From Escherichia phage tonn: DNA of 51,012 nt. Location: sequence record NC_049815.1; one strand, 5' to 3'. Below the pieces are notes generated by a model. It had not been told where the DNA came from. It made no database searches and saw nothing but the letters and a program-made list of their open reading frames with translations. Position 1 is the first letter of the stretch, and the number at the start of each line of letters is the position of its first letter. Both the position numbers and the translations under genes were made by a program. Shown piece after piece: positions 4,888 to 17,835 of the stretch.

Positions 4888-4909
4888 TGTTAATCCTCCT
4901 TTGGTTAGA

Positions 4910-4935: not shown

Positions 4936-4936
4936 A

Positions 4937-5562: not shown

Positions 5563-5576
5563 TTTGGATCTCCATT

Positions 5577-5635: not shown

Positions 5636-5724
5636 GTTGTTGTGTGACTATCGCGTCACGCGTTCGGACAAAGCCGCTCTTATGTAAACGACGCCATGCT
5701 AACCAATCAGGAAAGAGTTGTCAA

Positions 5725-5976
5725 TCATTCCCTGTCGAAAGCGTTCCCCCAACGTCCGCGCAAGTAACCACATAGCCAAATGAATTGAGTGATCGTCAAC
5801 ATTGGCGCGATTGGCTGGTAGTGTTCTGCAATGATTCCCTTCATTACTTCATCAACATACTTCCCGCGCTTTTCCACATCCGCTTTCATTGCCTCGCCGC
5901 ACTTTTTAGCCTGGCGTTTAGCTGCGTTGAATTGCGCCTCGTTCATGCCGAACATCAGTATCCTCTCCCCTTCCAT
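5725..5976 (-). CDS. hypothetical protein (alternative start at 5955)
   Basis: 83 aa ORF; lysine-rich N-terminal half. Confidence 0.45.
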   Translation of the reverse strand: MEGERILMFGMNEAQFNAAKRQAKKCGEAMKADVEKRGKYVDEVMKGIIAEHYQPIAPMLTITQFIWLCGYLRGRWGNAFDRE

Positions 5977-6083
5977 TCTTCCGCAAGTTTGAAATAGTTC
6001 ATAGCTTCTTCTACATCTCCGCGCTCAAGTGCTTCCTCCTGCTTCTCTTTGCACCATTGCGAGGGTTGTTTGTACTCATCCAT
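5955..6083 (-). CDS. small ORF (42 aa), stop overlaps possible start of downstream gene (TGATG)
   Basis: manual translation MDEYKQPSQW...; below the ORF-track size cutoff. Confidence 0.25.
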   Translation of the reverse strand: MDEYKQPSQWCKEKQEEALERGDVEEAMNYFKLAEEWKGRGY

Positions 6084-6153
6084 TAAATCACCTTACCAGA
6101 AAAATAGCTCGTTAGAATGCGATTGAGGCGCTCTAACGGCTATGCGTTTTTAA

Positions 6154-6468: not shown

Positions 6469-6716
6469 AAACCTGATTCCTCCATAGTCTCGTTTATGCG
6501 CTTCCAGTCTTCAATAGCTTTCTGGATGTATCCAGCCTCGTTGCGCCATGCGGCAGTTTCTGCCGCTCGCGTTGGTGCTGGTGTAAGTTGACGGCAAATC
6601 TGATCCGCAACTTCACCCATAGCGCCTTCCATACCAAAGCCAGAAATGTAGCGCATCACTTGATATGCTTGCTTCTCTGAAAGGTTAATCGTGATCATTC
6701 TTCTACTACCTCGCAT
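6465..6716 (-). CDS. hypothetical protein
   Basis: 83 aa ORF, 4-nt overlap with neighbour. Confidence 0.5.
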   Translation of the reverse strand: MRGSRRMITINLSEKQAYQVMRYISGFGMEGAMGEVADQICRQLTPAPTRAAETAAWRNEAGYIQKAIEDWKRINETMEESGL

Positions 6717-6907
6717 TCGTCATGGTTAACACTAATATTGTCGCCAGCCTTGATAAACTCGCTGTTGCGCGGCGCAATAACACAATAAGATCCGTCGCTG
6801 AAATGTCCGTCAACTTCCAGCACATCACCAACAACCAAGCCACATTGCTCAAGAGTGATTGATCCGTCGCCGTTGATAGTGTCGATTTTGGTGATTTTGA
6901 TTTTCAT
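6695..6907 (-). CDS. small acidic protein
   Basis: 70 aa, strongly acidic (D/E rich) with Cys residues. Confidence 0.45.
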   Translation of the reverse strand: MKIKITKIDTINGDGSITLEQCGLVVGDVLEVDGHFSDGSYCVIAPRNSEFIKAGDNISVNHDECEVVEE

Positions 6908-6964
6908 TGCGCTTTCCTCTGTTTCGCTTCAATAAGGGCACTTTACCAAATGCCCTTGCGGAAG

Positions 6965-6986
6965 TTTTAACAAAAAGTGCTATTAA
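6965..6986 (-). promoter_or_regulatory. 21-bp intergenic motif copy
   Basis: TTTTAACAAAAAGTGCTATTA on + strand = motif on - strand; contains stop of upstream gene. Confidence 0.5.
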
Positions 6987-7273
6987 CTCAGATAGTAAAG
7001 CTCATCGCGCGCGAAGCCGTCAAAATCTCGCTGTGTCAGCGGTCGATCCTCTCGCGCCGCTTCCTCTATCATGTTGATCAAAAAATCGTTCATCACCCCT
7101 AGTCCGCCATCCGGCATATAGCAAGCTGCGAAAGCTCGCGCCCATGAACGAGTATTTTTGAATCCGGCGCGCTTCATTGTGATTGGCGAGTGTTTAGAGT
7201 CGTTCCACTTGTTACACTGCGCGATGTTTTCAAAAGCGTTAACCAGTAGTTTGCGGTAAGTTTTGTTTGCCAT
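6983..7273 (-). CDS. hypothetical protein
   Basis: 96 aa ORF ending inside motif copy. Confidence 0.5.
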   Translation of the reverse strand: MANKTYRKLLVNAFENIAQCNKWNDSKHSPITMKRAGFKNTRSWARAFAACYMPDGGLGVMNDFLINMIEEAAREDRPLTQRDFDGFARDELYYLS

Positions 7274-7284
7274 TTCATATCCCC

Positions 7285-7488
7285 TTATTTTTGTTTAAGC
7301 CCCATCAGCATCTTGCGCACACCATCCTTTTTCCCGTCAGAGTAGCCAGCAATTGAACCAGCGGCAAACATCATCAAGTTGCCCCAAAAGGCCATAATGC
7401 CCTCATAGTTAATGGTTAAATGACTGCCGAAAAGAATCAGGAAAAGAATAATAATACCAGTTTTCATTTTCACCTCAGTAACAATCAT
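7285..7488 (-). CDS. small membrane protein
   Basis: 67 aa, two hydrophobic segments. Confidence 0.45.
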   Translation of the reverse strand: MIVTEVKMKTGIIILFLILFGSHLTINYEGIMAFWGNLMMFAAGSIAGYSDGKKDGVRKMLMGLKQK

Positions 7489-7723
7489 TAACGTGAATCA
7501 GCACGGAAAAACGACACTTGCGTAAGCGGTGGCGCTTCTTGACGTACATATAAGCATCGCTGTAATACTTAAATTCAGTGGCAATGATGCCGAAAAAGTC
7601 GTCTGTAACATAGTGCCAATTGCCGCCTAAGCTGCGTCGCTGCACATGATAAGTAGAACAGTCGCGGCAAAATACGATCCGGTATTCCGGCTTAAACAGT
7701 CGTTTCAATGCGTTAAAAACCAT
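7475..7723 (-). CDS. hypothetical Cys-containing protein
   Basis: 82 aa; CRDC...C motif. Confidence 0.45.
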   Translation of the reverse strand: MVFNALKRLFKPEYRIVFCRDCSTYHVQRRSLGGNWHYVTDDFFGIIATEFKYYSDAYMYVKKRHRLRKCRFSVLIHVNDCY

Positions 7724-7822
7724 AGTAGCGCCCTCATGCTATAAAGAAAAAGTAGCATTGATAATACCGCAATCATTGCGGAATGAAAATCAAAAGGTGG
7801 CTTAGGATTCGTTGCGTTATTG

Positions 7823-8269
7823 TTATTTCCCAGCATTGCGCGCAATCCCCTTATACATGCCGTAAAAATCATCGCCAGGCTTTTTGAACTTGATCGCATT
7901 TCGCGCAAGTCGGCGCATACGTCGCGCATCGTATCTCGCTCGCTGAAATGGTGTTTTCATTGCCTTAACATGACGACCGAGATGATCGCTGATTCTCTTA
8001 AGCTCAATCAAAACTCCTTGAGTCGCCACTACGCAATAATTATCAAAGCCAATACGGCGAGTAATGATATAGCCATTATTGATGCGCGGACGGCAAAAGT
8101 CACCACTAACACCACGATAAATACTATCCACCGCAACAACCTGGCCCTTGCTAACGCCACAATATTTATCTGCCCAGGTTACGCGAAATTTTGTTCCAAC
8201 GCGAATGTCGTTTAACTCCACCATGATTGTTTCCTCTCGTTGATTGGTGTTTGCATTATAGCGAGGCAT
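7823..8269 (-). CDS. hypothetical protein
   Basis: 148 aa ORF; preceded by a TATAAT-containing cassette. Confidence 0.5.
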   Translation of the reverse strand: MPRYNANTNQREETIMVELNDIRVGTKFRVTWADKYCGVSKGQVVAVDSIYRGVSGDFCRPRINNGYIITRRIGFDNYCVVATQGVLIELKRISDHLGRHVKAMKTPFQRARYDARRMRRLARNAIKFKKPGDDFYGMYKGIARNAGK

Positions 8270-8280
8270 TGCGCCCCGCG

Positions 8281-8301
8281 TTTAGCAATTCGTGCTATTT
8301 A
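8281..8301 (-). promoter_or_regulatory. 21-bp intergenic motif copy (variant AAATAGCACGAATTGCTAAA) with TATAAT 22 bp downstream
   Basis: motif match; TAG inside motif is stop of kinase gene. Confidence 0.5.
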
Positions 8302-8885
8302 ATCTTTGTGTGCTTCCATTTGACAGCATTGACGATCTCGTTTACAGCCAGTTCCGGCTTGCCGTCCTGCAAGTGGAAGTCATAGTGATGGATTCGATAG
8401 TGATAACCGCTCAGGTCAATGTAGTCTCTCGAATCGCCAGCAAACGTGAAGCCGTCGCGATGCAATCGGCAAATATGCACATCATGCCCTGCCTTAACAA
8501 GCGGCTTGACTTCTTCGGGGAATCCTCCATCACTGATCACAACCGCCAAATCTCGGTACATCTCGTGAATCTCTTCAACCATGCGACGCCCGAAATAGTG
8601 ATCCCCAAAGACTGGCTTCATTACATCCTCGCTAATCCAGATCATGAATTGTCGAGGTGACTTGCCTCCTAAGATAACTTGAGGCTTTTCTTTTTGCTCA
8701 CGGTCGTTGTACAGGTCAATAAACTCATCATATCGAGTCGGGCCAAGCATGGAAAACGCAATATCGAACATCGGCTGTTTGAATGACGCCTTAACCGCTG
8801 GGTAACGATGGCCCGTTAGGTAAGCTGCAATAGTGTCCTTCCCGCAACCTGGCGGCCCATTAAGGATGATAATGTCTCGTTTCAT
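8295..8885 (-). CDS. P-loop kinase (T4 dNMP kinase / polynucleotide 5'-kinase-like)
   Basis: 196 aa; N-terminal Walker A NGPPGCGKDT resembling the GKDT P-loop of T4 gp1 and the GSGKST of T4 Pnk. Confidence 0.6.
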   Translation of the reverse strand: MKRDIIILNGPPGCGKDTIAAYLTGHRYPAVKASFKQPMFDIAFSMLGPTRYDEFIDLYNDREQKEKPQVILGGKSPRQFMIWISEDVMKPVFGDHYFGRRMVEEIHEMYRDLAVVISDGGFPEEVKPLVKAGHDVHICRLHRDGFTFAGDSRDYIDLSGYHYRIHHYDFHLQDGKPELAVNEIVNAVKWKHTKIK

Positions 8886-8887
8886 GA

Positions 8888-9037
8888 TTAATGATCTCCA
8901 TAGCGAAAAATCGCATTAAATTTTTTCCCGCGCTTCTTGTCTTCGTTGCGCTTCTTGCGTTGCTTTTTCACAAGCTCCACATGCTCATCGTACCCGCGAC
9001 GCTTCTTTTTGGTAATGATTTTTTCAAAGTTACGCAT
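8888..9037 (-). CDS. small highly basic protein (49 aa)
   Basis: manual translation MRNFEKIITKKKRRGYDEHVELVKKQRKKRNEDKKRGKKF...; GGGGGAG RBS; ends 2 nt before kinase ATG. Confidence 0.3.
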   Translation of the reverse strand: MRNFEKIITKKKRRGYDEHVELVKKQRKKRNEDKKRGKKFNAIFRYGDH

Positions 9038-9096
9038 CGTCTCCCCCTTTAGGTTTTCTCAACATGGCGCACTGCATGAATGCGCCATAGCAAGAA

Positions 9097-9282
9097 TCAC
9101 CACTCAAATTTCTGTTTGTCTCTGATGATCTCGTAAATTGCTAACCACACCCAAACAAACCAGAAAGCGAGAACGATTTTATCGTCCTTGTCTGTCGCGC
9201 CAGAATATTTCACAAACGCGCGGAACGTGAATAAGCCTGAAATGTAAAGAAAAACAACCAAAAAAGCAAGTAACAAAATCAT
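9097..9282 (-). CDS. small membrane protein
   Basis: 61 aa, two hydrophobic helices. Confidence 0.45.
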   Translation of the reverse strand: MILLLAFLVVFLYISGLFTFRAFVKYSGATDKDDKIVLAFWFVWVWLAIYEIIRDKQKFEW

Positions 9283-9542
9283 TTATTTTCTCCCTCTACT
9301 ACCAGAGTGTAAAGCAGAACAGGCTCTACCATGTCGCGGCGGCGCGGCTCTCGTGGCGAATCGAGCCATGCGCATTTCCCGTTTGACACAATATGGCCTA
9401 CCAGGTCACTAATTTTTGATATTCCATCTCGACGGATAACGTTGTACCCAATATCCTTGCCGTCAATAGAATGGATAGCAAAGAAGCTAGGCTCGCCGTC
9501 GATAATGTCTACAGCTTTAAAAAACTCGATCTTGTTAGCCAT
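9279..9542 (-). CDS. hypothetical protein
   Basis: 87 aa ORF with RBS GAGGA. Confidence 0.5.
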   Translation of the reverse strand: MANKIEFFKAVDIIDGEPSFFAIHSIDGKDIGYNVIRRDGISKISDLVGHIVSNGKCAWLDSPREPRRRDMVEPVLLYTLVVEGENK

Positions 9543-9600
9543 GATTTAATCCTCGTTTGTTGTTGATGGGCTTACTATACAGCAAGCCCGATGATCTGTT

Positions 9601-9621
9601 TTTTGCAAAAAGTGCTATTTA
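9601..9621 (-). promoter_or_regulatory. 21-bp intergenic motif copy (AAATAGCACTTTTTGCAAAA) with TATAGT downstream inside a hairpin loop
   Basis: motif match. Confidence 0.5.
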
Positions 9622-9776
9622 CGAACGCATAACGCTGTTACATCCTTCCCACTATCTGACATGTGGAGAATAACTTGCTTTCGCGCTTCCTGGCATCTTG
9701 ATTCGCCGTGGAACTCCTGCGACTCAATAGCTGCGGAGTTGTAACTTGTGACAAAGATTAAAAGCAACCAAGTCAT
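9615..9776 (-). CDS. small ORF (53 aa) with N-terminal hydrophobic segment, ATGA-coupled to phosphatase gene
   Basis: manual translation MTWLLLIFVTSYNSAAIES...; stop is the TAG of the motif copy, as for many neighbouring genes. Confidence 0.3.
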   Translation of the reverse strand: MTWLLLIFVTSYNSAAIESQEFHGESRCQEARKQVILHMSDSGKDVTALCVRK

Positions 9777-10327
9777 TTTAAACACTCCACGCCGTGAGAT
9801 TGCAGGTGAGCGTGCGGCTTGTCGTATTCAGTGACCTGATAGGTTGTGATCCCCAGGCTGCGGAAGTGCTTAACAACGTTCGGAGAATCGTCAAAGGCGC
9901 AAACAATATTGTCCAGGCCAATATCGCGCAAGGCTTCTTCTTTAATAACCGTATCCTTTCGGTTGTCCTCCTGGCGGCGCATGATGATTTCGTCAAACTT
10001 CACGCCGTTCTCATTCAACCATTTGCATGTTTCATAGCGCACTTCGTCGCTGCGTCCGGTCAAGATGACGATGGCAAATCCCGACACCCACAAACCGTTA
10101 ATAACCGCGATCGTGCTTTTAATCGGTGAATCTCCGGCGGCGGCCCTGTTAAATTCGCTCCACGATTCCGTAAGGTGTAAGTTTTCAGTTGGCAGCAAAT
10201 GCAAACGATGCGATCCGTCCGATAGTGTGCCGTCCAGGTCAACGATAACAATCGGCTTGCTGGTGATTAATTCGTACTTCTTGCCCCATAGTTCGAAAGT
10301 GTATTTTTTCATTATAAAACCTATCAA
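9773..10327 (-). CDS. HAD-family phosphatase, T4 Pnk 3'-phosphatase domain-like
   Basis: 184 aa; DLDGTL motif I and C-terminal RQEDNRKDTVIKEE / AFDDSPNVV blocks closely resembling the T4 polynucleotide kinase phosphatase domain (from memory). Confidence 0.7.
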   Translation of the reverse strand: MIGFIMKKYTFELWGKKYELITSKPIVIVDLDGTLSDGSHRLHLLPTENLHLTESWSEFNRAAAGDSPIKSTIAVINGLWVSGFAIVILTGRSDEVRYETCKWLNENGVKFDEIIMRRQEDNRKDTVIKEEALRDIGLDNIVCAFDDSPNVVKHFRSLGITTYQVTEYDKPHAHLQSHGVECLK

Positions 10328-10545
10328 TTAAAATGGATTTGCTTGTATTCTATTTCATCTGCCAGATCATTTAACTTATCTGCCAGCTTGCGCACTTGGT
10401 CAACGGTAAGTATCGACCTAAAATCCGGCCTACGCCCACCTTCAAACGTGCCATCAATAAAAACTCGATCGCCAAACTTGTATACATCAATCGCGTCGCC
10501 GTGGTTATCAGTAAACCTGTGCTTGACGCGCTTATTTGTTTTCAT
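10324..10545 (-). CDS. hypothetical protein
   Basis: 73 aa ORF. Confidence 0.5.
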   Translation of the reverse strand: MKTNKRVKHRFTDNHGDAIDVYKFGDRVFIDGTFEGGRRPDFRSILTVDQVRKLADKLNDLADEIEYKQIHFN

Positions 10546-10777
10546 CTTTCACTTCCTCAAATTCCGCGTCTGTAATCTGCTCAAACTCGGCAACTACGTT
10601 TTCAAACGCAACGATCTCTGTTCCATTCTCGCCGTTAAGGTAAAACTTGTATCCGTTGTTGCAGTGAACATGATAAGAGTGACCATCTCTTGTGTCCTTC
10701 TTGCCCTGGTACACCTTGCCAGGCGTGAAGAATGGTCTATTGCTCTTAACGCAAAGAAAATTGTTTTCAATGATCAT
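10532..10777 (-). CDS. small protein, member of intragenomic paralog family
   Basis: 81 aa; shares F.PG..Y...FLNG..GT...AEFE pattern with 10774..10995. Confidence 0.5.
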   Translation of the reverse strand: MIIENNFLCVKSNRPFFTPGKVYQGKKDTRDGHSYHVHCNNGYKFYLNGENGTEIVAFENVVAEFEQITDAEFEEVKDENK

Positions 10778-10995
10778 TGTTTCACTTCCTCAAATTCAGC
10801 CATTACCATAGCGTGTGCCATAACCTTAGTGCCTTCGCCGCCGTTCAGGAACATGCGATGCCCCTTACTATTGCTCACGTAAAAAGATCCGGTTGATGAT
10901 TTCAGTTTTTTCGCTGTATAGATTTCGCCAGGCTTGAACATACCAGAGCAAGCATAGTTAACGGAAACGCATTTCATCTTCTTTTTAATGTACAT
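10774..10995 (-). CDS. small protein, paralog of 10532..10777
   Basis: start moved to ATG at 10995 (GAAGGAG RBS); listed longer ORF would run into the promoter cassette. Confidence 0.5.
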   Translation of the reverse strand: MYIKKKMKCVSVNYACSGMFKPGEIYTAKKLKSSTGSFYVSNSKGHRMFLNGGEGTKVMAHAMVMAEFEEVKQ

Positions 10996-11049
10996 CGTTT
11001 TATCTCCTTCGTTGAAAGTAGGGCCATTATACCTGGCCCCACATTTGAG

Positions 11050-11071
11050 TTTTAACAATTCGTGCTATTTA
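11050..11071 (-). promoter_or_regulatory. 21-bp intergenic motif copy with TATAAT 21 bp downstream inside hairpin GGGGCC..GGCCC
   Basis: motif match; TAA of motif is stop of upstream gene. Confidence 0.5.
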
Positions 11072-11962
11072 CACTTTGACCTTCCACTTAACCATCGTTC
11101 CGCGCTTAATGCTGATCTCACCTGCAATCGTCCGGTTTTTATAGCCGCCGTAGTGAAGCAGAAGGATAACAACGTCATCATGAATCTCGATCGTCTTTGG
11201 TGTTGCCGTTACTTCATACCAGGTGCCGTCATCAAGCCGGACTCCTTTTAGAGTGGCTGCAACTGGCATATCTTCAATTGCGCCCTGCGTTACGATTTCT
11301 TGATTTGCAAATGCGCTCTTGTCAATGCGCCAGCCTCCAGGCGCTTTCATTTCGGCAGCCGCTTTGTGGATCTCATCGCCAATGATTTTTTGAATTGACG
11401 TCTTACCGCCGCCGAATGGAGTTTCTCCAAATAAGTGTTTTGTAATATCTTCCACGTAATACACTTTATCTTTTTCGTTGTGCGGATTGTATCTATTGTG
11501 ACCGTTGACAAAGAAATCAACTTTCAACTCTGATTTCGTACCATCGCTATAAACGCCATTGTCGCGCGATGTGAATCGAATCGTTGAATTACCAACCGTG
11601 TAGAACGTGATCGGATACTTGATATTGTCAACACTTAAGCACCACAGCTTTTTATAGTCGCATGTTTTCATCTCGACCATCGGAATCTCTGCGCGTTCCG
11701 GTGAGCGCACTGGCAACACCTGGCCTTTATATGGCTTGTAGTGGAAGCTGGTATATCCTGGCATTGCATAGCCATAGTCTTTAAGTGCGTTGTACTGCGT
11801 ATTGTGCGCATCAATAAAGTGTTCAATCTCCATGTCTGATGGGCTTAGTTTGTCGCTATTCATATCAACCTTATGGCATGTTTTTTCATCGGTAAAAATG
11901 TAATGACCAATGCCGCGAGATTCGAAGGTGATCGGGAATTTAATGTCAGCAAGTTTTAACAT
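11069..11962 (-). CDS. hypothetical protein (297 aa)
   Basis: long ORF with RBS GGAGAAAG; no recognisable motif. Confidence 0.55.
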   Translation of the reverse strand: MLKLADIKFPITFESRGIGHYIFTDEKTCHKVDMNSDKLSPSDMEIEHFIDAHNTQYNALKDYGYAMPGYTSFHYKPYKGQVLPVRSPERAEIPMVEMKTCDYKKLWCLSVDNIKYPITFYTVGNSTIRFTSRDNGVYSDGTKSELKVDFFVNGHNRYNPHNEKDKVYYVEDITKHLFGETPFGGGKTSIQKIIGDEIHKAAAEMKAPGGWRIDKSAFANQEIVTQGAIEDMPVAATLKGVRLDDGTWYEVTATPKTIEIHDDVVILLLHYGGYKNRTIAGEISIKRGTMVKWKVKV

Positions 11963-12041
11963 GGTGCTTTCTCCTGATTGGTTTTGTGGGCGACGCCGTG
12001 CCGCCCTATGTGATTTATTATGCCTGGTTATCGTTTTCGAG

Positions 12042-12063
12042 TTTTAACAAAAAGTGCTATTTA
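12042..12063 (-). promoter_or_regulatory. 21-bp intergenic motif copy with CATAAT 22 bp downstream
   Basis: motif match. Confidence 0.5.
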
Positions 12064-12246
12064 GAATTTGACCTCTTCCACAAGCTCAACCATCTTGTAA
12101 CCAAGACGATAAGAGTCACCGAACAACAAGATCCCCATAAATTCATCGTGGATTATTGACTCCTTGCCAACCGTTCTAAGCTCGCCGTTGTGAATCACAG
12201 TATCGCCGATCTTGATTTCTGACTTATGGACTAGTTTCGTTTTCAT
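12061..12246 (-). CDS. hypothetical protein
   Basis: 61 aa ORF. Confidence 0.45.
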   Translation of the reverse strand: MKTKLVHKSEIKIGDTVIHNGELRTVGKESIIHDEFMGILLFGDSYRLGYKMVELVEEVKF

Positions 12247-12261
12247 CTATTCACCTGCTAA

Positions 12262-12447
12262 TTAAAAGAACGCTACATAGTTTGCAATGCCTTTGGCGTC
12301 ATCGTTTGGCATTGCTTTTACAGCCAGGTCATAACCTGCCTCTACCTTCTGCTTTGCTGTTTCTTCGTTGTAGCCCCAGATAACCAGGATTTTAACTACG
12401 TTTTCTTTGTTCAGGACTTTAAGGTCTTTGGTGATGCGACGTGCCAT
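12262..12447 (-). CDS. hypothetical protein
   Basis: 61 aa ORF. Confidence 0.45.
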   Translation of the reverse strand: MARRITKDLKVLNKENVVKILVIWGYNEETAKQKVEAGYDLAVKAMPNDDAKGIANYVAFF

Positions 12448-12504
12448 TTTTGTTTCCTCAATCTCGTTTCGATGAGGCTATTATGCCAGGCTTTGCGCCT
12501 GGCG

Positions 12505-12526
12505 TTTTAACAAAAAGTGCTATTTT
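12505..12526 (-). promoter_or_regulatory. 21-bp intergenic motif copy with hairpin CCAGGC-n5-GCCTGG and CATAAT
   Basis: motif match; leader contains CATCGAAACGA. Confidence 0.5.
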
Positions 12527-12792
12527 GTCTCTACGGTCATATGTTCTGTCTTCGTGCCTTTGCCATTGCTTTTCGACACTTCCCAGCTAGTCGTGCCCTT
12601 ACAGTTGGTGAAGTAAACAGTGCGATCGTCATAGAATCGGTAAACGGTGCAACCGTCAGCGGTGAATAGCTCCCTTACGCTGTAGTCATCGCCAGGGTTA
12701 GCCATCTGCACATTGCCAACATGCGCGCCATCTTCTTTGCATCCGGTCAGGAATGCCATTGCCGCCAAAACGCTGATTAATGCCTTTTTCAT
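12520..12792 (-). CDS. lipoprotein (signal peptide with lipobox LTGC)
   Basis: MKKALISVLAAMAFLTGC N-terminus; ATGA overlap with upstream gene; second gene of the consensus-promoter operon. Confidence 0.55.
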   Translation of the reverse strand: MKKALISVLAAMAFLTGCKEDGAHVGNVQMANPGDDYSVRELFTADGCTVYRFYDDRTVYFTNCKGTTSWEVSKSNGKGTKTEHMTVETK

Positions 12793-13250
12793 TGCTCTTC
12801 CTCTTTGATGATTTCGCGGATCATATCCTGGTAGCGGCTTACGCCCTCGCAAGCCCCAGCCAGTTTATCCCCTTCCAGGTCAACGATATTCGGGATTGCT
12901 GCCAGTAAGCGATCGGCAAACTTTTTGATCGCCCTTGCCTTGATTGCTGGCAATTCTTCGGGTGTGATGATTTTCCTTTTCGATTCGCGCACCATGCGGA
13001 AAACGTAAAATTTATCATCTTCCGTTTCCTCTACCTTGATGCTTACCCGACCTGCGGCCCTTACTTCTGGAACGCGGTTGATAATGGTCCGGCTGTAGGA
13101 TGAACTGCGCGTGATCTTGTAGCAGTCGTCACCGCTTAACATTCCGGCCAGGTCAATTAGTGACATTTTATACTCTTCAATATCGCCACTAGCCAGGCGG
13201 CGACCAAGCTCGCGAAGCCAATCGCAATAGTCCTTAGTGGTCTTCTGTTC
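12789..13250 (-). CDS. hypothetical immediate-early protein
   Basis: ATG at 13250 with GGAGGAAAGGAA RBS, just downstream of consensus promoter. Confidence 0.5.
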   Translation of the reverse strand, partial: EQKTTKDYCDWLRELGRRLASGDIEEYKMSLIDLAGMLSGDDCYKITRSSSYSRTIINRVPEVRAAGRVSIKVEETEDDKFYVFRMVRESKRKIITPEELPAIKARAIKKFADRLLAAIPNIVDLEGDKLAGACEGVSRYQDMIREIIKEEEQ

Positions 13251-13284
13251 CATTTCCTTTCCTCCAGTTGTTGACTGTTGGCGC

Positions 13285-13312
13285 ATTATAAAAGCTATTT
13301 GGTGCGTGTCAA
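13285..13312 (-). promoter_or_regulatory. consensus sigma70 promoter TTGACA-16-TATAAT (leftward early promoter)
   Basis: perfect -35 (13312..13307) and -10 (13290..13285) hexamers on - strand with 16-bp spacer. Confidence 0.6.
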
Positions 13313-13419
13313 TGTTTTTGTTGTATTCAAAACGTTACCAATATCGAAAAACTACAAAATCATGCGCAAGTTATTGATTTCAGGGCTGTTATTTTTCTGT
13401 TCACGCTGTTAACGCAATC

Positions 13420-13630
13420 CGCCGGAAAAAGTATATATACATATGCAATCCGCCGCGCGCGCAACTATCCATATATACCCACACACAACCACACCATAAC
13501 CAACAAAAAGCACTGTAACAGTGAGAACAAAAAGAAAACATTATAGATATATATAAATAAATAATCTTTATTTTCAATGTATTATAAAGGATTTTTTTTG
13601 TTTTTTCCGTTTTCGATACACCGGAAAACC
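13420..13630. repeat. AT-rich noncoding element, copy A (homologous to 34036..34280)
   Basis: shared ordered blocks CGCCGGA..TATATACATA, CACAAACAACCAAAACCACAA-like CA-rich run, ATAAATAAATAA, TCGATA(A)CACCGGAAAAC. Confidence 0.55.
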
Positions 13631-13748
13631 GCGCGGAAACACGCCGCCTGAAATCGGTAACAGGGGTGAACAAAAGACAACAACCGCTGACAGCCAGGCG
13701 GAAAAGTGAGGCAAGAGGGGAAGGTTTCACTATCTCCCCTGCAACCAA

Positions 13749-13840
13749 TGATTAAACGTGATTACTTTTCTCATCAAATTTGCAAAGGCAATCATCATTT
13801 TGACGAGATTTGATTACGAATGATTACTTTTGATTATTTC
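13749..13840. repeat. iteron-like direct repeats of TGATTAC(TTTT) (5 copies)
   Basis: TGATTA at 13749, 13759, 13811, 13821, 13831. Confidence 0.5.
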
Positions 13841-13865
13841 GATCGCAATCCTGGCGATAACCGTC

Positions 13866-13886
13866 AAATAGCACTTTTTGTTAAAA
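13866..13886 (+). promoter_or_regulatory. 21-bp intergenic motif copy (rightward) with TACATT 22 bp downstream
   Basis: exact AAATAGCACTTTTTGTTAAAA; leader CATCGAAACGAAC at 13917..13929. Confidence 0.5.
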
Positions 13887-13946
13887 CCCAGGCCGCCTGA
13901 TCGGGTACATTACACACATCGAAACGAACCGCTCAGGAGATAGTAA

Positions 13947-14219
13947 ATGAACATCAGCAAAACCACTTTCAATTTCGCTAAGCGTCACGGTCTGGATCTG
14001 ACTGTTGAAGATTTTGGCGATGTTCTGCAACTCTGCATATGGGAAGCAGATAACGATTGCGAGTGGCTTTGCTCTTATCGCATTAACTACGATTGCTTGA
14101 CCTGGCACTGCAATATCTATCTGCCGCAAGAAGTGAAAGAAGAATTGCCAGCGACTATCAACAACGAAGTTTTCTTGCGCCAGGTGCTGAAATTTATCAG
14201 TAAGGAGATCAAGAAGTAA
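13947..14219 (+). CDS. hypothetical protein (Cys-rich)
   Basis: 90 aa; GGAGATAG RBS. Confidence 0.5.
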   Translation: MNISKTTFNFAKRHGLDLTVEDFGDVLQLCIWEADNDCEWLCSYRINYDCLTWHCNIYLPQEVKEELPATINNEVFLRQVLKFISKEIKK

Positions 14220-14485
14220 TGGCGGTGATTACCGAAAATGATTTGGATCTGGCGGAGGCGTTTTGCAGGGCCGCCAGGGCTAACCTGGATGTGACCACTA
14301 AATTTCTTCCGGCGCGACCACTCTTTTCGTGTGCGCCCGTGAATAAACCGACTCGCGTAATGATCGTGATTGAAGGTGATGGCCTGTACGCTGAAAAGAC
14401 GTTCCACATCAGCAACATTAAGGGCCGTGCTGATTTTATCAATGATGTTTGCTTATTGCAGGAGAAGAAAAAATGTTGGATGTGA
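14219..14485 (+). CDS. hypothetical protein
   Basis: 88 aa; TAATG coupling with upstream gene. Confidence 0.5.
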   Translation: MAVITENDLDLAEAFCRAARANLDVTTKFLPARPLFSCAPVNKPTRVMIVIEGDGLYAEKTFHISNIKGRADFINDVCLLQEKKKCWM

Positions 14486-14682
14486 TCAAGAAAGCACATG
14501 AGATGGGTATGGATGTTTCAATCTGCGACGCTTCCGCGCGTCACCCGTCAGCGCCTGAAAATATGGTTGTTGTCATCGTGCATAATCACCGCTATGAGTG
14601 CCGTGCGATGTTTGAGAAGCAGGATAAAGAGTATCAACGCTGTTTTATCAACGAAGTTTGCGATCTGTATGGGAGGATCTGA
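14473..14682 (+). CDS. hypothetical protein
   Basis: start set to ATG 14473 (AGGAGAAG RBS). Confidence 0.45.
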   Translation: MLDVIKKAHEMGMDVSICDASARHPSAPENMVVVIVHNHRYECRAMFEKQDKEYQRCFINEVCDLYGRI

Positions 14683-14683
14683 A

Positions 14684-14896
14684 ATGTTCAAGAAATTGTT
14701 ATGGCTGTACCGCTCCAGGCGCAATAAGGGATATTGCATGGGCACGGAAAGGAATCTTGACCGCGCTTATAAATACTGCCTGTTGTTGCTCGCCAGTCTG
14801 CCGGAAAACAGGAAGGAATATATTGCACTGCGAGAAATAACAATGCGGATATATAGTTACCGCAATAAACTATACGTCTTTAAATCTTTACGATAA
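14684..14896 (+). CDS. small basic protein
   Basis: ATG 14684 with GGGAGGA RBS; 70 aa. Confidence 0.4.
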   Translation: MFKKLLWLYRSRRNKGYCMGTERNLDRAYKYCLLLLASLPENRKEYIALREITMRIYSYRNKLYVFKSLR

Positions 14897-14908
14897 GGAG
14901 TAATAACC

Positions 14909-15172
14909 ATGAAAATTAATGCACCTATTCCAGTTAAGCGCAAAGCACGTTTGCTCAATAACGGGTGTTACGCCCTGCGGCCTGCATTTAAGGATCGCAC
15001 ATTTCCGGTTATCGTTAACGTGTCTCACGTAAGCCGTAGCGGAAATCTGGTATTCGTTAAAGGTGAAGATCTGGCGGCGCTTGGATTCTATGGCGGTGTT
15101 CACGGCGAACCGCTCGGATTCTGGCTTGTGGATCCGTTAACTGGAGAGCGTGAAATCGAATTCCTGGACTAA
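14909..15172 (+). CDS. hypothetical protein
   Basis: 87 aa, TAAGGAG RBS; stop TAA is first triplet of motif copy. Confidence 0.5.
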   Translation: MKINAPIPVKRKARLLNNGCYALRPAFKDRTFPVIVNVSHVSRSGNLVFVKGEDLAALGFYGGVHGEPLGFWLVDPLTGEREIEFLD

Positions 15173-15191
15173 ATAGCACTTTTTGTTAAAA
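15171..15191 (+). promoter_or_regulatory. 21-bp intergenic motif copy with TATAGT 22 bp downstream in hairpin loop
   Basis: exact motif. Confidence 0.5.
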
Positions 15192-15247
15192 ACGATGCGC
15201 TGCTGATTGGTATAGTAAGCGCATCGACAACAAACGAGGATTTAAAG

Positions 15248-15445
15248 ATGGAAAATCAGGTTGATGTTAAAGTTGTTAAGCGCGACAAGTCTCACGAAAA
15301 AGGTTTGTTTAAGAAAGGTGCTGAAATCACCATTGACCTTGATGATATGGAGGCGTACCACTCAGGGCTAACTTGGAATGTGCGCAAATGTGAAAACGGC
15401 CTGTTCAAGTTAAATGGCTTTGAAACATACATGGAGATCATCTAA
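15248..15445 (+). CDS. small protein (possible paralog family member)
   Basis: 65 aa. Confidence 0.5.
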   Translation: MENQVDVKVVKRDKSHEKGLFKKGAEITIDLDDMEAYHSGLTWNVRKCENGLFKLNGFETYMEII

Positions 15446-15657
15446 TGGCAAAGCAATTAAAAATTAAATGCGTAGAAACTTATGACTCAACTTGGAGATT
15501 TACGCGCGGAAAAGAATACCCGCTAATGGGAAATCTCAAAGAAGATCCTCATGTAATTTCAGATAATGGCCTTCACCTTTATTTAATGGAATACAACGAT
15601 GGATATATTGGTGCTGGTGTTCCAGGTCATAAATTTAAGATGAAAAATAAGAAATGA
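15445..15657 (+). CDS. small protein (possible paralog family member)
   Basis: 70 aa; pattern FTRGKEY...NG..LYL similar to 10532..10777. Confidence 0.5.
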   Translation: MAKQLKIKCVETYDSTWRFTRGKEYPLMGNLKEDPHVISDNGLHLYLMEYNDGYIGAGVPGHKFKMKNKK

Positions 15658-15765
15658 GGCTATTTATTTTCAAAAATGCCTGGATGGTAGCGGTTGCAAA
15701 TGACCATTACGGCGGCGACGGAAAAAGAGCACGACGCCATTCATATTTCAATTGAGGATATTTAA

Positions 15766-15993
15766 ATGAAAGCAAAAGTTTTAAACATTATGGCAACTAT
15801 TGACGCTCATCACCGCGTGGCTGTAAAACTTGATAAGTCTTGCGGAATTAGCCAAATCACTATCACCGAGGGCAAAGGCGGCTATCTTATTGGTATCCAT
15901 CCAGGCGGTAAGGTGCGCAAATACAATAAAGATCAGTTAAAAGAATTACTGGAAGAAAACGCTTTCTATATTCAAAGTTGGCGTGCTCTTTAA
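15766..15993 (+). CDS. hypothetical protein
   Basis: 75 aa; followed by hairpin GGCGGC-gtttt-GCCGCC. Confidence 0.5.
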   Translation: MKAKVLNIMATIDAHHRVAVKLDKSCGISQITITEGKGGYLIGIHPGGKVRKYNKDQLKELLEENAFYIQSWRAL

Positions 15994-16034
15994 TTAATAT
16001 GGCGGCGTTTTGCCGCCTTTTAAATGAGGTGGAA

Positions 16035-16151
16035 ATGATAGATAAGGCTATTGATTTCTTTTTTTATTCGATTATTGGCGCGGTTGGCTTTTTGGTTACT
16101 GCTGCTGGCCTGGCTATTATCTTGGCTGTTATTAAGGGGATTATGCGATGA
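16035..16151 (+). CDS. small hydrophobic peptide (38 aa, one TM helix)
   Basis: manual translation MIDKAIDFFFYSIIGAVGFLVTAAGLAIILAVIKGIMR; GAGGTGG RBS; ATGA overlap with next gene. Confidence 0.3.
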   Translation: MIDKAIDFFFYSIIGAVGFLVTAAGLAIILAVIKGIMR

Positions 16152-16372
16152 GTCAAGACGGATTTTTTGAGCGCCTTCAAATGGCAGAAGATGCCGGACT
16201 AAATAAAGAGGCGGCGCTTGAAGTGGCATATAAAATTAAGCCTCTTGATGAGGCTTTAGGTGATATGGATATGGATCTTGAATCAAGCGCAATATTTGCA
16301 GATCCCACTATGATTGTTAATGATTGTGGATGCGATTTCGATCCTGGTTGTCCGCGCTGTTTTCCGTTTTGA
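16148..16372 (+). CDS. small acidic Cys-rich protein
   Basis: 74 aa; C-terminal CGCDFDPGCPRCF cluster. Confidence 0.5.
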   Translation: MSQDGFFERLQMAEDAGLNKEAALEVAYKIKPLDEALGDMDMDLESSAIFADPTMIVNDCGCDFDPGCPRCFPF

Positions 16373-16383
16373 GGTAATGACGA

Positions 16384-17093
16384 TGTATAAAGGTTTAATA
16401 TTCTCCCTATTTGATGGATCTGGTAAAGCAGTTAAAGATTGGGCTGATAATGGATATAAGTGCATTTGCTTTAATGCTGACGGCGGCGATCACGGTGATT
16501 ACCAGTCAGTGCGCATACAGCATGAGAATATCGAATACGTTAACGTCTGGATTGATGATGCTTTTTATGTTAAGGCAATCAATAATGAGTTGGGCAATCC
16601 TGATTTTATTATGGCGTTCCATCCTTGCACCGACCTTGCAAATAGCGGATCTCGCCATTGGGCCAAAAAACGCCTTGAGAATCCATCGTTCCAGGATGAG
16701 GCCGCCGACACTTGCAGAATCGCGGCTGATATAGCTGATTATTTCGGTGTTCCTTACATGATCGAAAATCCGGTTGGCAAGTTGTCAACGTTATGGCGTA
16801 AGCCTGATTATACGTTCCATCCGTGCGATTACGCTGGCTATCTGCCGGAAGATGATAAACATCCCGACTTCCCTGATATTATTCCGGCGCGTGATCGCTA
16901 TTTTAAGAAAACGTGCCTCTGGACTGGCAACGGCTTTGTTATTCCTCCACGCGCTTTAATCCTGCCGAAAGAGGAAGACAAAGATAATCCAGGCTGGGCC
17001 AAAACTGGAGGCAAGTCATCGCGCACAAAGATGATCCGCTCCCTCACTCCGCGCGGATTTGCTCGCGCCGTCTTTGAGTCAAACTCAAAATAG
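16384..17093 (+). CDS. DNA cytosine-5 methyltransferase-fold protein, atypical and without a normal target recognition domain
   Basis: 236 aa from ATG 16384 (GAGG RBS); FSLFDGSG (motif I-like), HPC-T at residues 80-83 (motif IV-like), ENPVG (motif VI-like), PARDRYF (motif VIII-like) at M.HhaI-like spacing. Confidence 0.55.
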
Positions 17094-17108
17094 CACTTTT
17101 TGTTAAAA
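17088..17108 (+). promoter_or_regulatory. 21-bp intergenic motif copy with hairpin GCCAGGT-n6-ACCTGGC then CATAAT
   Basis: exact motif; TAG in motif is stop of methyltransferase-fold gene. Confidence 0.5.
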
Positions 17109-17162
17109 GCCAGGTGTAAAAACCTGGCATAATCACATCGAACAAACAAAGGAGATCTGATC

Positions 17163-17549
17163 ATGAATGTTATCTGTAATGAAACCAACGTATTGATGAA
17201 AGGCCGTTTTAAAACGGTTTATCAGAAGATTGCAGGAAGTGATGATGTGATCGAGGTGGAAGAGTTCCAGGTTAAGACGCTTGTTAAGGGTAGCCGCTGG
17301 CTTCCAGCAAACCGAGATGATTACCGCGCCATTAACACAAAAACCGTTCTTTGCACGTTTGTAGATCATAACATGCCGTGCAAAAAGCACTTTAAGCAGG
17401 GCAAGCGATACCAGATCGAGAAAGGGCGACCGCTTGGAAGCGTTGCGGGTTATGTTTTTGATGAGTGCGGCGACCGCTGGAACCTGTACCGTGAAGAGGT
17501 AGGATTCTCTGCTGGCGGCTGTTATCTGTTTGAGGGCAAATATCTGTGA
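17163..17549 (+). CDS. hypothetical protein
   Basis: 128 aa; GGAG RBS. Confidence 0.5.
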   Translation: MNVICNETNVLMKGRFKTVYQKIAGSDDVIEVEEFQVKTLVKGSRWLPANRDDYRAINTKTVLCTFVDHNMPCKKHFKQGKRYQIEKGRPLGSVAGYVFDECGDRWNLYREEVGFSAGGCYLFEGKYL

Positions 17550-17767
17550 TAAACAGTGAAAACCGTTACAAAGTAACGCATTCTACCACAAAGACTTTCA
17601 AGCCTGGCGATATAGTCAGGCCCATCAAAAAAACGGCGGTAGGTTGGCTGATTGGTTTTTCATATCATAAGGCGCTTTACTTTACGTTTAAGGATGGGAT
17701 TACAGGAGAATGCTACAGCGACCGCCAGCCTGATCGACTTCTGGTTGCAATAGAGCGGATCAAATAG
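17546..17767 (+). CDS. hypothetical protein
   Basis: 73 aa; ATGA-type overlap upstream. Confidence 0.5.
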   Translation: MINSENRYKVTHSTTKTFKPGDIVRPIKKTAVGWLIGFSYHKALYFTFKDGITGECYSDRQPDRLLVAIERIK

Positions 17768-17782
17768 CACTTTTTGACAAAA
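17762..17782 (+). promoter_or_regulatory. 21-bp intergenic motif copy (TTGACA variant) with TAAAAT in hairpin loop
   Basis: AAATAGCACTTTTTGACAAAA. Confidence 0.5.
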
Positions 17783-17835
17783 CGGGGTAGTATTGGGCCG
17801 TTAAAATTTACGGCCCACAAAGGAGAAGCTAACGA

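What the first reader, a model, noticed from the sequence alone, without database searches (positions are those of the whole stretch)
8888..16151. Unlisted sub-60-aa ORFs that are translationally coupled to neighbours
Three small ORFs below the ORF-track cutoff have good signals: 8888..9037 (49 aa, very basic, GGGGGAG RBS, ends 2 nt before the kinase ATG); 9615..9776 (53 aa, hydrophobic N-terminus, ATGA overlap with the phosphatase stop, ends in the motif TAG like many real genes here); 16035..16151 (38 aa, single TM helix, GAGGTGG RBS, ATGA overlap with the next gene). A fourth is 5955..6083 (42 aa).
Basis: seen in the sequence. Interest (0 to 1): 0.4.

Follow-up and report, generated by a model that had tools for sequence, protein, structure and literature searches.

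The report
Four small conserved phage genes
The four short reading frames are real, conserved small genes of a T1-like coliphage that sit stop-to-start against their neighbours, but relatives in GenBank already list them as hypothetical proteins, so the finding is correct and ordinary.

Summary
The window is a Warwickvirus (Drexlerviridae, T1-like) phage, 99.1% identical over the tested 10.6 kb to Escherichia phage tinuso. All four are conserved in frame across Warwickvirus and Hanrivervirus. Indels come in multiples of three and synonymous changes are in excess (dN/dS about 0-0.5), so they are protein-coding. ORFs on other frames or the opposite strand mostly score 0.6 or more or are broken; a few antisense ORFs score low as a codon-phase artefact.

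None is new. A, B and D are annotated CDSs in tinuso. C is annotated in FritzSarasin, tunus, JK16, EcoS-95 and others.

- D (42 aa) belongs to the T7 gp1.8 family (phrog_1312) and models as a helical hairpin.
- A (49 aa, net charge +12) is a probable distant relative of T7 gp1.1, sharing the MRNFEK N-terminus.
- B (53 aa) is phrog_5579. Its hydrophobic N-terminus models as a core beta-strand of a beta-beta-alpha-beta fold, not a signal peptide.
- C (38 aa) is a single-pass membrane protein.

Coupling is supported by conserved junction geometry only; it has not been tested. No function is known.

The parts
8888..9037 (-). ORF A: 49-aa, strongly basic (net +12) protein, probably T7 gp1.1-like. 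Identical to tinuso_24.
   Evidence: residues 1-21 are identical in the seven Warwickvirus alleles, apart from I8V (tiwna) and R13L (FritzSarasin). Against Hanrivervirus there are 7 synonymous changes in that stretch. dN/dS is 0.12-0.43. Relation to gp1.1: Pfam PF08200 at 18.4 bits against a cutoff of 21, blastp to T7 gp1.1 E 4e-4, hhalign probability 73%.
9041..9049 (-). Shine-Dalgarno sequence of ORF A (AAGGGGGAG).
   Evidence: Read from the sequence. AAAGGGGGA is kept in the Warwickvirus relatives.
8295..8885 (-). dNMP kinase gene (196 aa). Its ATG lies 2 nt after the stop of ORF A.
   Evidence: phrog_139 at 8.2e-51. The junction TAA-TC-ATG was read directly. The GGAG in A's last codons (TAT GGA GAT) can serve as its SD. 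It is not a T7 gp1.7 homolog.
9615..9776 (-). ORF B: 53-aa protein of phrog_5579 with two conserved Cys and a predicted beta-beta-alpha-beta fold. 98% identical (52 of 53 residues) to tinuso_21.
   Evidence: 11 synonymous against 2 non-synonymous changes versus morffagbaw (P 1.8e-6). AF2 pLDDT 89. The same fold recurs in many small phage proteins.
9773..10312 (-). HAD-type phosphatase ('polynucleotide kinase' in annotations), 179 aa. Its TGA overlaps the ATG of ORF B (ATGA), and GGAG at 9785..9788 lies 8 nt before that ATG.
   Evidence: Pfam HAD_PNKP 3.5e-21 and phrog_415 6e-66. The overlap is kept in KarlJaspers, 2019SD1, egaa and morffagbaw.
16035..16151 (+). ORF C: 38-aa single-pass membrane protein. 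The SD GAGGTGG is at 16026..16032.
   Evidence: the best 19-residue window has mean Kyte-Doolittle hydropathy 2.51. It is 37-38 aa in Warwickvirus and Hanrivervirus and 33 aa in a Tlsvirus. It is annotated as a 117-nt CDS in FritzSarasin, tunus, JK16, EcoS-95 and Poky. An in-frame TAA sits directly before the ATG in four Hanrivervirus genomes.
16001..16017 (+). Terminator-like GC hairpin followed by TTTT, between the preceding gene (15766..15993) and the SD of ORF C.
   Evidence: It overlaps the longer 50-aa and 57-aa start choices for C and argues against them.
16148..16372 (+). 74-aa gene (phrog_9323). Its ATG overlaps the TGA of ORF C (ATGA).
   Evidence: The overlap is kept in both genera but not in Tlsvirus GS71.
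5955..6083 (-). ORF D: 42-aa acidic protein of the T7 gp1.8 family (phrog_1312), predicted helical hairpin. Identical to tinuso_33. The SD AAGGTGA is at 6088..6094.
   Evidence: D scores 1.5e-17 and T7 gp1.8 scores 6.3e-15 against phrog_1312, and blastp between them gives 1e-7. Versus tonnikala there are 8 synonymous and 0 non-synonymous changes (P 6.4e-7). AF2 pLDDT 84.
5725..5955 (-). 76-aa gene (phrog_303). Its ATG shares one base with the TGA of ORF D (TGATG).
   Evidence: The junction is TGATG or TAATG in all 14 relatives.

Best explanation
The four ORFs are genuine genes for small proteins in the leftward and rightward arms of the non-structural, presumably early, gene region of a T1-like Warwickvirus phage.

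They sit inside short cassettes of 1-4 genes. Within a cassette, one gene's stop overlaps the next gene's start or lies 0-2 nt before it. The downstream Shine-Dalgarno sequence is written into the upstream gene's last codons. A ribosome finishing one gene can therefore start the next, which is termination-reinitiation coupling.

- A feeds into the dNMP kinase.
- B is fed by the HAD phosphatase.
- C feeds the 74-aa gene upstream of the Dcm methylase.
- D feeds a 76-aa gene.

What the products look like:
- A is a gp1.1-like basic peptide. Its first ~21-23 residues are the conserved part.
- B is a soluble beta-beta-alpha-beta miniprotein with two conserved cysteines.
- C is an inner-membrane single-pass protein. 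The flanking charges (N-terminal MIDKAID, C-terminal KGIMR) suggest N-terminus out and C-terminus in.
- D is a gp1.8-like helix-turn-helix hairpin.

Shown here: coding status, conservation, junction geometry, family assignment and predicted folds.

Inferred: actual coupling, and roles as accessory or host-takeover factors that act by binding a partner rather than by catalysis. No biochemical function is established for any of the four, nor for T7 gp1.1 or gp1.8.
For: Identity and annotation:
- The tested 10.6-kb stretch (5800-16400) is 99.1% identical to phage tinuso.
- A, B and D are annotated CDSs there.
- C is annotated in Tuinin, FritzSarasin, tunus, JK16, EcoS-95, Poky, KarlJaspers, 2019SD1, BEK7, JLBYU41 and Fulano1.

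Conservation:
- Frames, starts, RBSs and junctions are kept in 14 relatives, with codon-multiple indels.
- dN/dS is 0.12-0.43 for A, 0.04-0.14 for B, 0-0.52 for C and 0-0.30 for D.
- Binomial excess of synonymous changes: P 6.4e-7 for D, 1.8e-6 for B, 0.0023 for A and 0.014-0.09 for C.
- In a control over all 155 ORFs of at least 25 aa in 5700-16450, annotated genes score 0.01-0.4. Off-frame and opposite-strand ORFs mostly score 0.6 or more, or carry stops or frameshifts.

Families:
- D and T7 gp1.8 both match phrog_1312.
- B matches phrog_5579.
- All 13 members of the A family hit Pfam Phage_1_1 at E of 0.1 or better, best 3.6e-5.

Coupling grammar:
- T7 genes 1.1->1.2 and 1.8->2 have the same layout, with the SD in the last codons and a gap of 1-2 nt.
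- In tinuso, overlaps of 4 nt or 1 nt are the commonest same-strand junction type.

Folds: B has pLDDT 89 and D has pLDDT 84.

No Rfam family matches the region.
Against: - No expression, ribosome-profiling or peptide data were found for any of these genes.
- Coupling is geometric inference only. Every small ORF also has its own SD, so independent initiation is possible.
- In Tlsvirus GS71 the C homolog is not overlapped with the next gene, so coupling is not obligatory.
- The dN/dS evidence for C is weak across genera (P 0.09).
- The C-terminal half of A tolerates frameshifted variants in database relatives. That part of the peptide may therefore matter little.
- The structure models rest on very shallow alignments of 3-4 sequences.
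Confidence: 0.88

Rival explanations
1. The ORFs are chance open frames, or shadows of signals on the other strand, in intergenic spacers and make no protein.
For: ORFs of 38-53 codons are common by chance: 172 ORFs of at least 30 aa overlap 4000-18000. C has no PHROG, Pfam or NCBIfam family. Across genera its dN/dS is only modestly below 1.
Against: The frames are kept across two or three genera with whole-codon indels, conserved starts and RBSs, and an excess of synonymous change. The ORFs that overlap them on the opposite strand are broken or show high pN/pS. D and B fall in multi-genus protein families. B and D give confident fold predictions.
Confidence: 0.03
2. The small ORFs are translated mainly as ribosome-delivery devices, like leader or upstream ORFs, that set expression of the neighbouring enzyme genes. 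The peptides themselves would be largely dispensable.
For: The last codons of A and D encode the SD of the next gene. The C-terminal half of A varies by indels and by frameshifted tails, while the end ...RYG(D/G)(H/N), which carries that SD, is retained. T7 gp1.1 and gp1.8 have the same layout. gp1.8 is listed as non-essential, and gp1.1 has unknown function.
Against: Amino-acid sequences are conserved through synonymous change well away from the junctions: A residues 1-21, all of D, and B. B lies downstream of its partner, so it cannot be a delivery device for it. In Tlsvirus, C persists without the overlap. B and D are predicted to have defined folds.
Confidence: 0.08
3. B is an exported or membrane-anchored peptide. 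Its hydrophobic N-terminus would be a signal or anchor, and the two cysteines would form a periplasmic disulfide.
For: B starts with the 12-residue uncharged run MTWLLLIFVTSY, followed by NSAA. Two cysteines are conserved in both paralog types. One structural neighbour in BFVD is named 'putative secreted protein'.
Against: There is no K or R before residue 27. The hydrophobic run is too short for a membrane helix, and the best 19-residue window has mean Kyte-Doolittle hydropathy of only 1.05. AF2 places residues 2-10 as a strand of a three-stranded sheet packed on the helix, at pLDDT about 90. In the 50-aa paralog the run is followed by DGGVDH, which has no cleavage-site pattern.
Confidence: 0.1
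4. C is really the longer protein: 50 aa from the ATG at 15999, as annotated in phage Tuinin, or 57 aa from the TTG at 15978.
For: The frame is open back to 15978. Tuinin annotates a 153-nt CDS there.
Against: The 57-aa version carries stops or frameshifts in 7 of 9 alleles. Four Hanrivervirus genomes have an in-frame TAA directly before the ATG. The extension runs through a terminator-like hairpin at 16001..16017. The strong SD GAGGTGG serves the ATG at 16035. In tinuso that start is GTG at the same position.
Confidence: 0.03

Closest known systems
Annotated hypothetical proteins of Warwickvirus phages: tinuso_24, tinuso_21 and tinuso_33; FritzSarasin bas04_0051; tunus gp61
   Same: These are the same genes at the same positions. 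A and D are identical to the tinuso proteins, B is 98% identical, and C is 95-100% identical to its annotated counterparts.
   Different: Nothing substantive. tinuso does not annotate C, where the start codon is GTG. Tuinin calls a longer C.
T7 gp1.8 (phrog_1312; non-essential, function unknown)
   Same: D and T7 gp1.8 both match phrog_1312 strongly, and blastp between them gives 1e-7. They share the ...SxWC... and ...LWK(G/S)RG C-terminal motifs. In both, the SD for the next gene lies in the last codons and the gap is 2 nt or less.
   Different: D lacks the 14-residue N-terminal extension of T7 gp1.8. In T7 the gene follows the gp1.7 nucleotide kinase and precedes gp2. Here it follows a 104-aa unknown protein and precedes a phrog_303 protein.
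T7 gp1.1 (Pfam PF08200 Phage_1_1, phrog_2490; small basic protein of unknown function)
   Same: Both start with MRNFEK, are 42-49 aa and strongly basic. In both, the C-terminal codons carry a GGAG-type SD and the stop lies 1-2 nt before the next gene. PMC7064336 reports that co-expressing gp1.1 with Ocr shut off host protein synthesis.
   Different: The similarity is confined to about 17 residues. A scores 18.4 bits, below Pfam's 21-bit cutoff. A's own family is phrog_8176, and the cross-hits between the two families are weak in both directions. The downstream gene is a P-loop dNMP kinase, not the dGTPase inhibitor gp1.2.
phrog_5579 / phrog_3766 small phage proteins, and the beta-beta-alpha-beta miniproteins in BFVD (some labelled DUF1482)
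   Same: B matches phrog_5579 at 3.5e-9. The 50-aa paralog found in tonnikala, JK16 and Tuinin matches it at 9.8e-23. The predicted fold superposes at TM 0.8-0.95 on many 50-70-aa phage proteins.
   Different: None of these has a known function. B is the version fused by an ATGA overlap to the phosphatase gene, while the paralog has its own RBS at another locus.

Membership tests
T7 gp1.8 family (phrog_1312) | Significant match to the family profile, with the type member T7 gp1.8 matching the same profile | tested here: met
   D scores 1.5e-17 and T7 gp1.8 scores 6.3e-15. Pairwise blastp gives 1e-7. tblastn finds 341 phage records, including T7-like phages annotated as gp1.8.
T7 gp1.8 family (phrog_1312) | Small size (about 42-48 aa) and a conserved C-terminal WK(G/S)RG next to the start of the next gene | tested here: met
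   D ends EEWKGRGY and its TGA overlaps the next ATG. T7 gp1.8 ends ELWKSRGQ, followed by TGA, 2 nt and ATG.
T7 gp1.1 family (Pfam PF08200 Phage_1_1) | Score at or above Pfam's gathering threshold of 21 bits | tested here: not met
   The window protein scores 18.4 bits, E 0.003. T7 gp1.1 itself scores 53.5 bits. All 13 relatives of A hit the model at E of 0.1 or better, best 3.6e-5.
T7 gp1.1 family (Pfam PF08200 Phage_1_1) | N-terminal MRNFEK motif, about 40-50 aa, strongly basic | tested here: met
   MRNFEK is identical in both, and A has net charge +12. The hhalign probability is only 73% over 17 columns, so homology is probable rather than proven.
T7 gp1.1 family (Pfam PF08200 Phage_1_1) | Reciprocal assignment to one PHROG family | tested here: inconclusive
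   A matches phrog_8176 at 0.003 and phrog_2490 at 0.11. T7 gp1.1 matches phrog_2490 at 8.7e-19 and phrog_8176 at 0.073.
phrog_5579 (small phage proteins, function unknown) | Significant full-length match to the family profile | tested here: met
   B scores 3.5e-9 over residues 1-53. The 50-aa paralog scores 9.8e-23.
Translationally coupled gene pair (termination-reinitiation) | The upstream stop overlaps the downstream start or lies within a few nt of it | tested here: met
   A to kinase: TAA-TC-ATG. Phosphatase to B: ATGA. C to the next gene: ATGA. D to the next gene: TGATG. These junctions are kept in relatives.
Translationally coupled gene pair (termination-reinitiation) | Translation of the downstream gene depends on translation of the upstream gene | not testable with these tools
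   This needs reporter fusions with premature stops, or ribosome profiling. No such data were found.
Sec signal peptide or membrane anchor (for B) | Positively charged n-region, an h-region long enough, and a cleavage motif or a helix of about 20 residues | tested here: not met
   The first K or R is at residue 27, and the uncharged run is 12 residues. AF2 models residues 2-10 as a beta-strand within a compact fold.
Single-pass membrane miniprotein (for C) | One hydrophobic segment of about 20 or more residues flanked by charges | tested here: met
   C has a 26-residue uncharged run, and its best 19-residue window has mean Kyte-Doolittle hydropathy 2.51. The hydrophobic character is kept in the Hanrivervirus and Tlsvirus homologs at 49-63% identity. 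EcoS-95's annotators note a TM domain found with Phobius and TMHMM.

The most novel reading that the evidence does not exclude
The N-terminal module MRNFEKI(I/V)(T/S)KKKR.., nearly invariant in the T1-like phages and opening with the MRNFEK it shares with T7 gp1.1, may be a portable effector peptide. It could bind RNA or the ribosome and contribute to host shut-off. Its variable basic tail would serve mostly to carry the SD that couples it to a nucleotide-metabolism gene. If so, T1-like and T7-like phages exchange a minimal early-gene toolkit (gp1.1 and gp1.8) whose targets could now be sought in two systems.
Probability: 0.12. Interest if true: 0.45.

Novelty: already known. Interest (0 to 1): 0.15.

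Why it matters
The result shows that a 60-aa cutoff hides at least six conserved genes in about 10 kb of this phage. Junction geometry together with frame conservation recovers them reliably.

It also links two of them to the long-uncharacterised T7 proteins gp1.1 and gp1.8. That gives a second, distantly related phage in which to look for their function.

Beyond that the finding adds no new biology. The genes are already in GenBank as hypothetical proteins, and their functions remain unknown.

Tried and rejected
1. B as a frameshifted C-terminus of a longer phosphatase. Some relatives (tonnikala, tonijn, EcoS-95, Poky) have a 236-aa enzyme and no B at that slot. Their roughly 57-aa extension is unrelated to B in sequence. 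Rejected.

2. The kinase after A as a T7 gp1.7 homolog. Both are 196 aa, which would have strengthened a T7-like synteny, but blastp finds no similarity. The equal length is coincidence.

3. PDB matches. Sequence searches gave nothing for A and B. D gave only a weak match to consensus TPR repeats, E 0.004. A Foldseek search of the B model against PDB gave no hit below E 0.1.

4. Large-database searches.
- The word-index searches returned only 3 (B), 12 (A) and 2 (D) clusters, all from phage-sized contigs, with no informative names.
- The full HMMER scan with an A profile found only 5 representatives, and none was a T7-type gp1.1.
- The precomputed Pfam label PF26839 on D's relatives is not in the local Pfam copy, so I could not name it.

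5. NCBIfam: no hit for any small ORF.

6. Rfam: no RNA family in 5600-16600.

7. Literature. [quoted passage not shown]

8. A first dN/dS script that called MAFFT timed out. It was redone with Biopython.

Full report
**What the window is.** A megablast of 5800-16400 finds 270 phage records. The best is Escherichia phage tinuso (MN850634; Drexlerviridae, Tempevirinae, Warwickvirus), at 99.1% identity over the whole query. The region is the block of small non-structural genes of a T1-like phage. Genes run leftward below about 13,300 and rightward from about 13,900.

**Checking the observation.** I read each ORF and its flanks directly.
- **A (8888..9037, minus strand)** encodes MRNFEKIITKKKRRGYDEHVELVKKQRKKRNEDKKRGKKFNAIFRYGDH, with net charge +12. 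The sequence AAAGGGGGAGACG precedes its ATG. Its TAA is followed by TC and then the ATG of the 196-aa dNMP kinase (phrog_139).
- **B (9615..9776, minus strand)** encodes MTWLLLIFVTSYNSAAIESQEFHGESRCQEARKQVILHMSDSGKDVTALCVRK. Its ATG overlaps the TGA of the HAD phosphatase (Pfam HAD_PNKP). Its TAG is the first triplet of the recurrent motif TAGCACTTTTTG.
- **C (16035..16151, plus strand)** encodes MIDKAIDFFFYSIIGAVGFLVTAAGLAIILAVIKGIMR. It follows GAGGTGG-AA and overlaps the next gene as ATGA.
- **D (5955..6083, minus strand)** encodes MDEYKQPSQWCKEKQEEALERGDVEEAMNYFKLAEEWKGRGY. It follows AAGGTGA-TTTA, and its TGA shares a base with the next ATG.

**Is it more than chance?** ORF length alone is not evidence, so I fetched the homologous region from 14 relatives. 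There are ten Warwickvirus genomes: tinuso, Tuinin, FritzSarasin, tunus, tonnikala, JK16, tonijn, EcoS-95, Poky and tiwna. Three are assigned to Hanrivervirus: KarlJaspers, 2019SD1 and egaa. I group a fourth, morffagbaw, with these by sequence. I located each ORF in them by tblastn.

All four frames are retained with their start codons, RBSs and junctions, and length differences are whole codons: A is 49, 46 or 43 aa, and C is 38 or 37 aa.

Nei-Gojobori estimates give these dN/dS ranges:

| ORF | dN/dS | Example comparison |
|---|---|---|
| A | 0.12-0.43 | |
| B | 0.04-0.14 | 11 synonymous / 2 non-synonymous vs morffagbaw |
| C | 0-0.52 | |
| D | 0-0.30 | 8 synonymous / 0 non-synonymous vs tonnikala |

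Binomial tests for an excess of synonymous change give P = 6.4e-7 (D), 1.8e-6 (B), 0.0023 (A) and 0.014-0.09 (C).

As a control I ran all 155 ORFs of at least 25 aa in 5700-16450 through one pipeline. Annotated genes score pN/pS 0.01-0.4 with few disruptions. Off-frame and opposite-strand ORFs mostly score 0.6 or more, or carry stops or frameshifts. A few antisense shadows score low, which is a known codon-phase effect, but the opposite-strand ORFs over A-D do not behave as coding.

C has the weakest statistics. Three other observations support it: its hydrophobic character persists at 49-63% identity; an in-frame TAA sits directly before its ATG in four Hanrivervirus genomes; and it is present in a third genus, Tlsvirus GS71.

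**Already annotated.**
- A, B and D are tinuso_24, tinuso_21 and tinuso_33.
- C is not called in tinuso, where its start is GTG. It is a 114-nt CDS in KarlJaspers, 2019SD1, BEK7, JLBYU41 and Fulano1.
- tblastn finds A in 68 phage records, B in 49, C in 101 and D in 341. Nearly all listed rows overlap a CDS annotated as hypothetical protein.

**What the proteins are.**

*D.* It matches phrog_1312 at 1.5e-17, and so does T7 gp1.8 at 6.3e-15. Pairwise blastp gives 1e-7. AF2 models a two-helix hairpin (H7-21 and H24-39, pLDDT 84). A weak sequence match to consensus TPR repeats (E 0.004) fits that shape.

*A.*
- It shares MRNFEK and a basic composition with T7 gp1.1. Pfam Phage_1_1 scores 18.4 bits against a 21-bit cutoff, blastp gives 4e-4, and hhalign gives 73% probability over 17 residues.
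- All 13 database relatives hit the Pfam model at E of 0.1 or better.
- PHROG cross-hits are weak in both directions.
- A full HMMER scan of 1.84 billion representatives with an A profile found only five proteins, all of the form MRNFEK... and about 45 aa.
- I therefore call A a probable distant relative of gp1.1, not a member by Pfam's rule.
- Residues 1-23 are nearly invariant in the database relatives. In the fetched genomes, residues 1-21 differ within Warwickvirus only by I8V and R13L. Against Hanrivervirus there are seven synonymous changes over that stretch.
- The tail varies by indels, and in some database entries by frameshift. The end RYG(D/G)(H/N), whose codons TAT GGA G.. carry the next gene's SD, is kept.

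*B.*
- It matches phrog_5579. A 50-aa paralog (MATWILLILMIDGG...SC...LCIKK) with its own RBS sits at another locus in tonnikala, FritzSarasin, JK16 and Tuinin, and is absent from this window.
- AF2 gives a confident beta-beta-alpha-beta fold (pLDDT 89). The hydrophobic N-terminus is strand 1 of that fold.
- No PDB structure matches below E 0.1. Many 50-70-aa phage proteins in BFVD share the fold at TM 0.8-0.95.

*C.* It has a 26-residue uncharged run, and its best 19-residue window has mean Kyte-Doolittle hydropathy 2.51. It has no PHROG, Pfam or NCBIfam family.

**Coupling.** The junctions are conserved:
- A to the next gene is TAA followed by 0-2 nt and ATG. This holds whether the next gene is the kinase or, in tunus, tonijn, FritzSarasin and tonnikala, an inserted 63-aa gene.
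- Phosphatase to B is ATGA wherever the 53-aa B is present.
- C to the next gene is ATGA in both genera.
- D to the next gene is TGATG or TAATG in all 14 relatives.

In each case a GGAG-type SD for the downstream gene lies in the last codons of the upstream one.

T7 shows the same design at 1.1->1.2 (GGGAGGG..TAA-G-ATG) and at 1.8->2 (GAGAGG..TGA-CT-ATG). In tinuso, overlaps of 4 nt or 1 nt are the commonest same-strand junction. The remaining gaps cluster near 70-75 nt, and several of those I inspected hold the TAGCAC motif.

So the small ORFs obey the genome's general grammar. Actual dependence of downstream translation on upstream translation remains an inference. In Tlsvirus GS71, C is not overlapped with its neighbour.

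**Start of C.** A GC hairpin followed by TTTT at 16001..16017 lies between the preceding gene and C's SD. The longer 57-aa frame is broken in 7 of 9 alleles.

My best-supported reading is that these are accessory small proteins that act by binding partners:
- A: nucleic acid or the ribosome.
- B and D: protein targets.
- C: an inner-membrane target.

They would be expressed stoichiometrically with their neighbours through coupling. That functional reading is inference.

**Verdict.** The genes are already known as annotated hypothetical proteins, so novelty and interest are low. The useful additions are:
- the formal conservation test;
- the family assignments to gp1.8 and, probably, gp1.1;
- the correction about B's N-terminus;
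- the resolved start of C;

Noticed in passing
window, 19 copies: minus strand 2794, 6982, 8297, 9617, 11067, 12059, 12522, 23186, 24257, 26746, 28308; plus strand 13869, 15174, 17091, 17765, 19927, 34290, 45281, 49539: The motif (a)aaTAGCA(C/T)nnnTTG is most often TAGCACTTTTTG followed by TTAAAAC. In most copies a variable GC hairpin and a TATAAT-like box follow, the box about 22 nt after TTG(T/C)TA, and then an RBS. There are 16 exact TAGCACNNNTTG copies and 25 hits at one mismatch or fewer, against 12 expected. Strand follows gene direction. The TAG often serves as the stop codon of the upstream gene (B, the kinase, the Dcm methylase and the 522-aa gene ending at 2792). It looks like a cassette boundary: a promoter with an upstream element, or a processing site. 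The string was not found in any relevant paper.
   Followed up: partly
It overlaps both neighbours. It is 70-100% identical across the two genera, annotated in Tuinin, EcoS-95, FritzSarasin and KarlJaspers, and has no PHROG family.
   Followed up: partly
window 15654..15755 (+): A sixth conserved small ORF: 33 aa, MRLFIFKNAWMVAVANDHYGGDGKRARRHSYFN. It has an ATGA overlap with the preceding 70-aa gene. pN/pS is 0.14 with no broken allele in 11 loci. It matches phrog_32259 at 3.3e-20 and is annotated in Tuinin and FritzSarasin.
   Followed up: partly
window 9615..10312, compared with L007:4309-5019, L009, L010 and L011: The slot after the phosphatase varies. This phage has a 179-aa enzyme plus the overlapping ORF B. 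tonnikala, tonijn, EcoS-95 and Poky have a 236-aa enzyme with an unrelated C-terminal extension of about 57 aa and no B there. FritzSarasin has a 69-aa ORF overlapping the enzyme's stop.
   Followed up: partly
ORF A relatives P0007, P0011, P0013, P0014 (alignment A1): Database relatives of A keep residues 1-23 but have frameshifted or fused tails. P0011 joins the N-terminus of A to the C-terminal part of the 43-aa ORF at 7705..7836. The join runs through a similar ...R(E/A)ML(H/G)N(I/N)N.. stretch, which suggests recombination or deletion between short repeats at gene borders.
   Followed up: no
L004 (Shigella phage 2019SD1, NC_049820): In this relative D has an internal stop (..CAQK*EEAL..) and A is truncated to a 16-codon remnant, while B and C are intact. 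This is either gene decay or sequence errors in that record.
   Followed up: no
phage collection hits to this region: About 20 records named 'Campylobacter phage' (MG0656xx, unannotated) carry T1-like sequence matching this E. coli phage region. This is probably contamination or mislabelling of those records.
   Followed up: no
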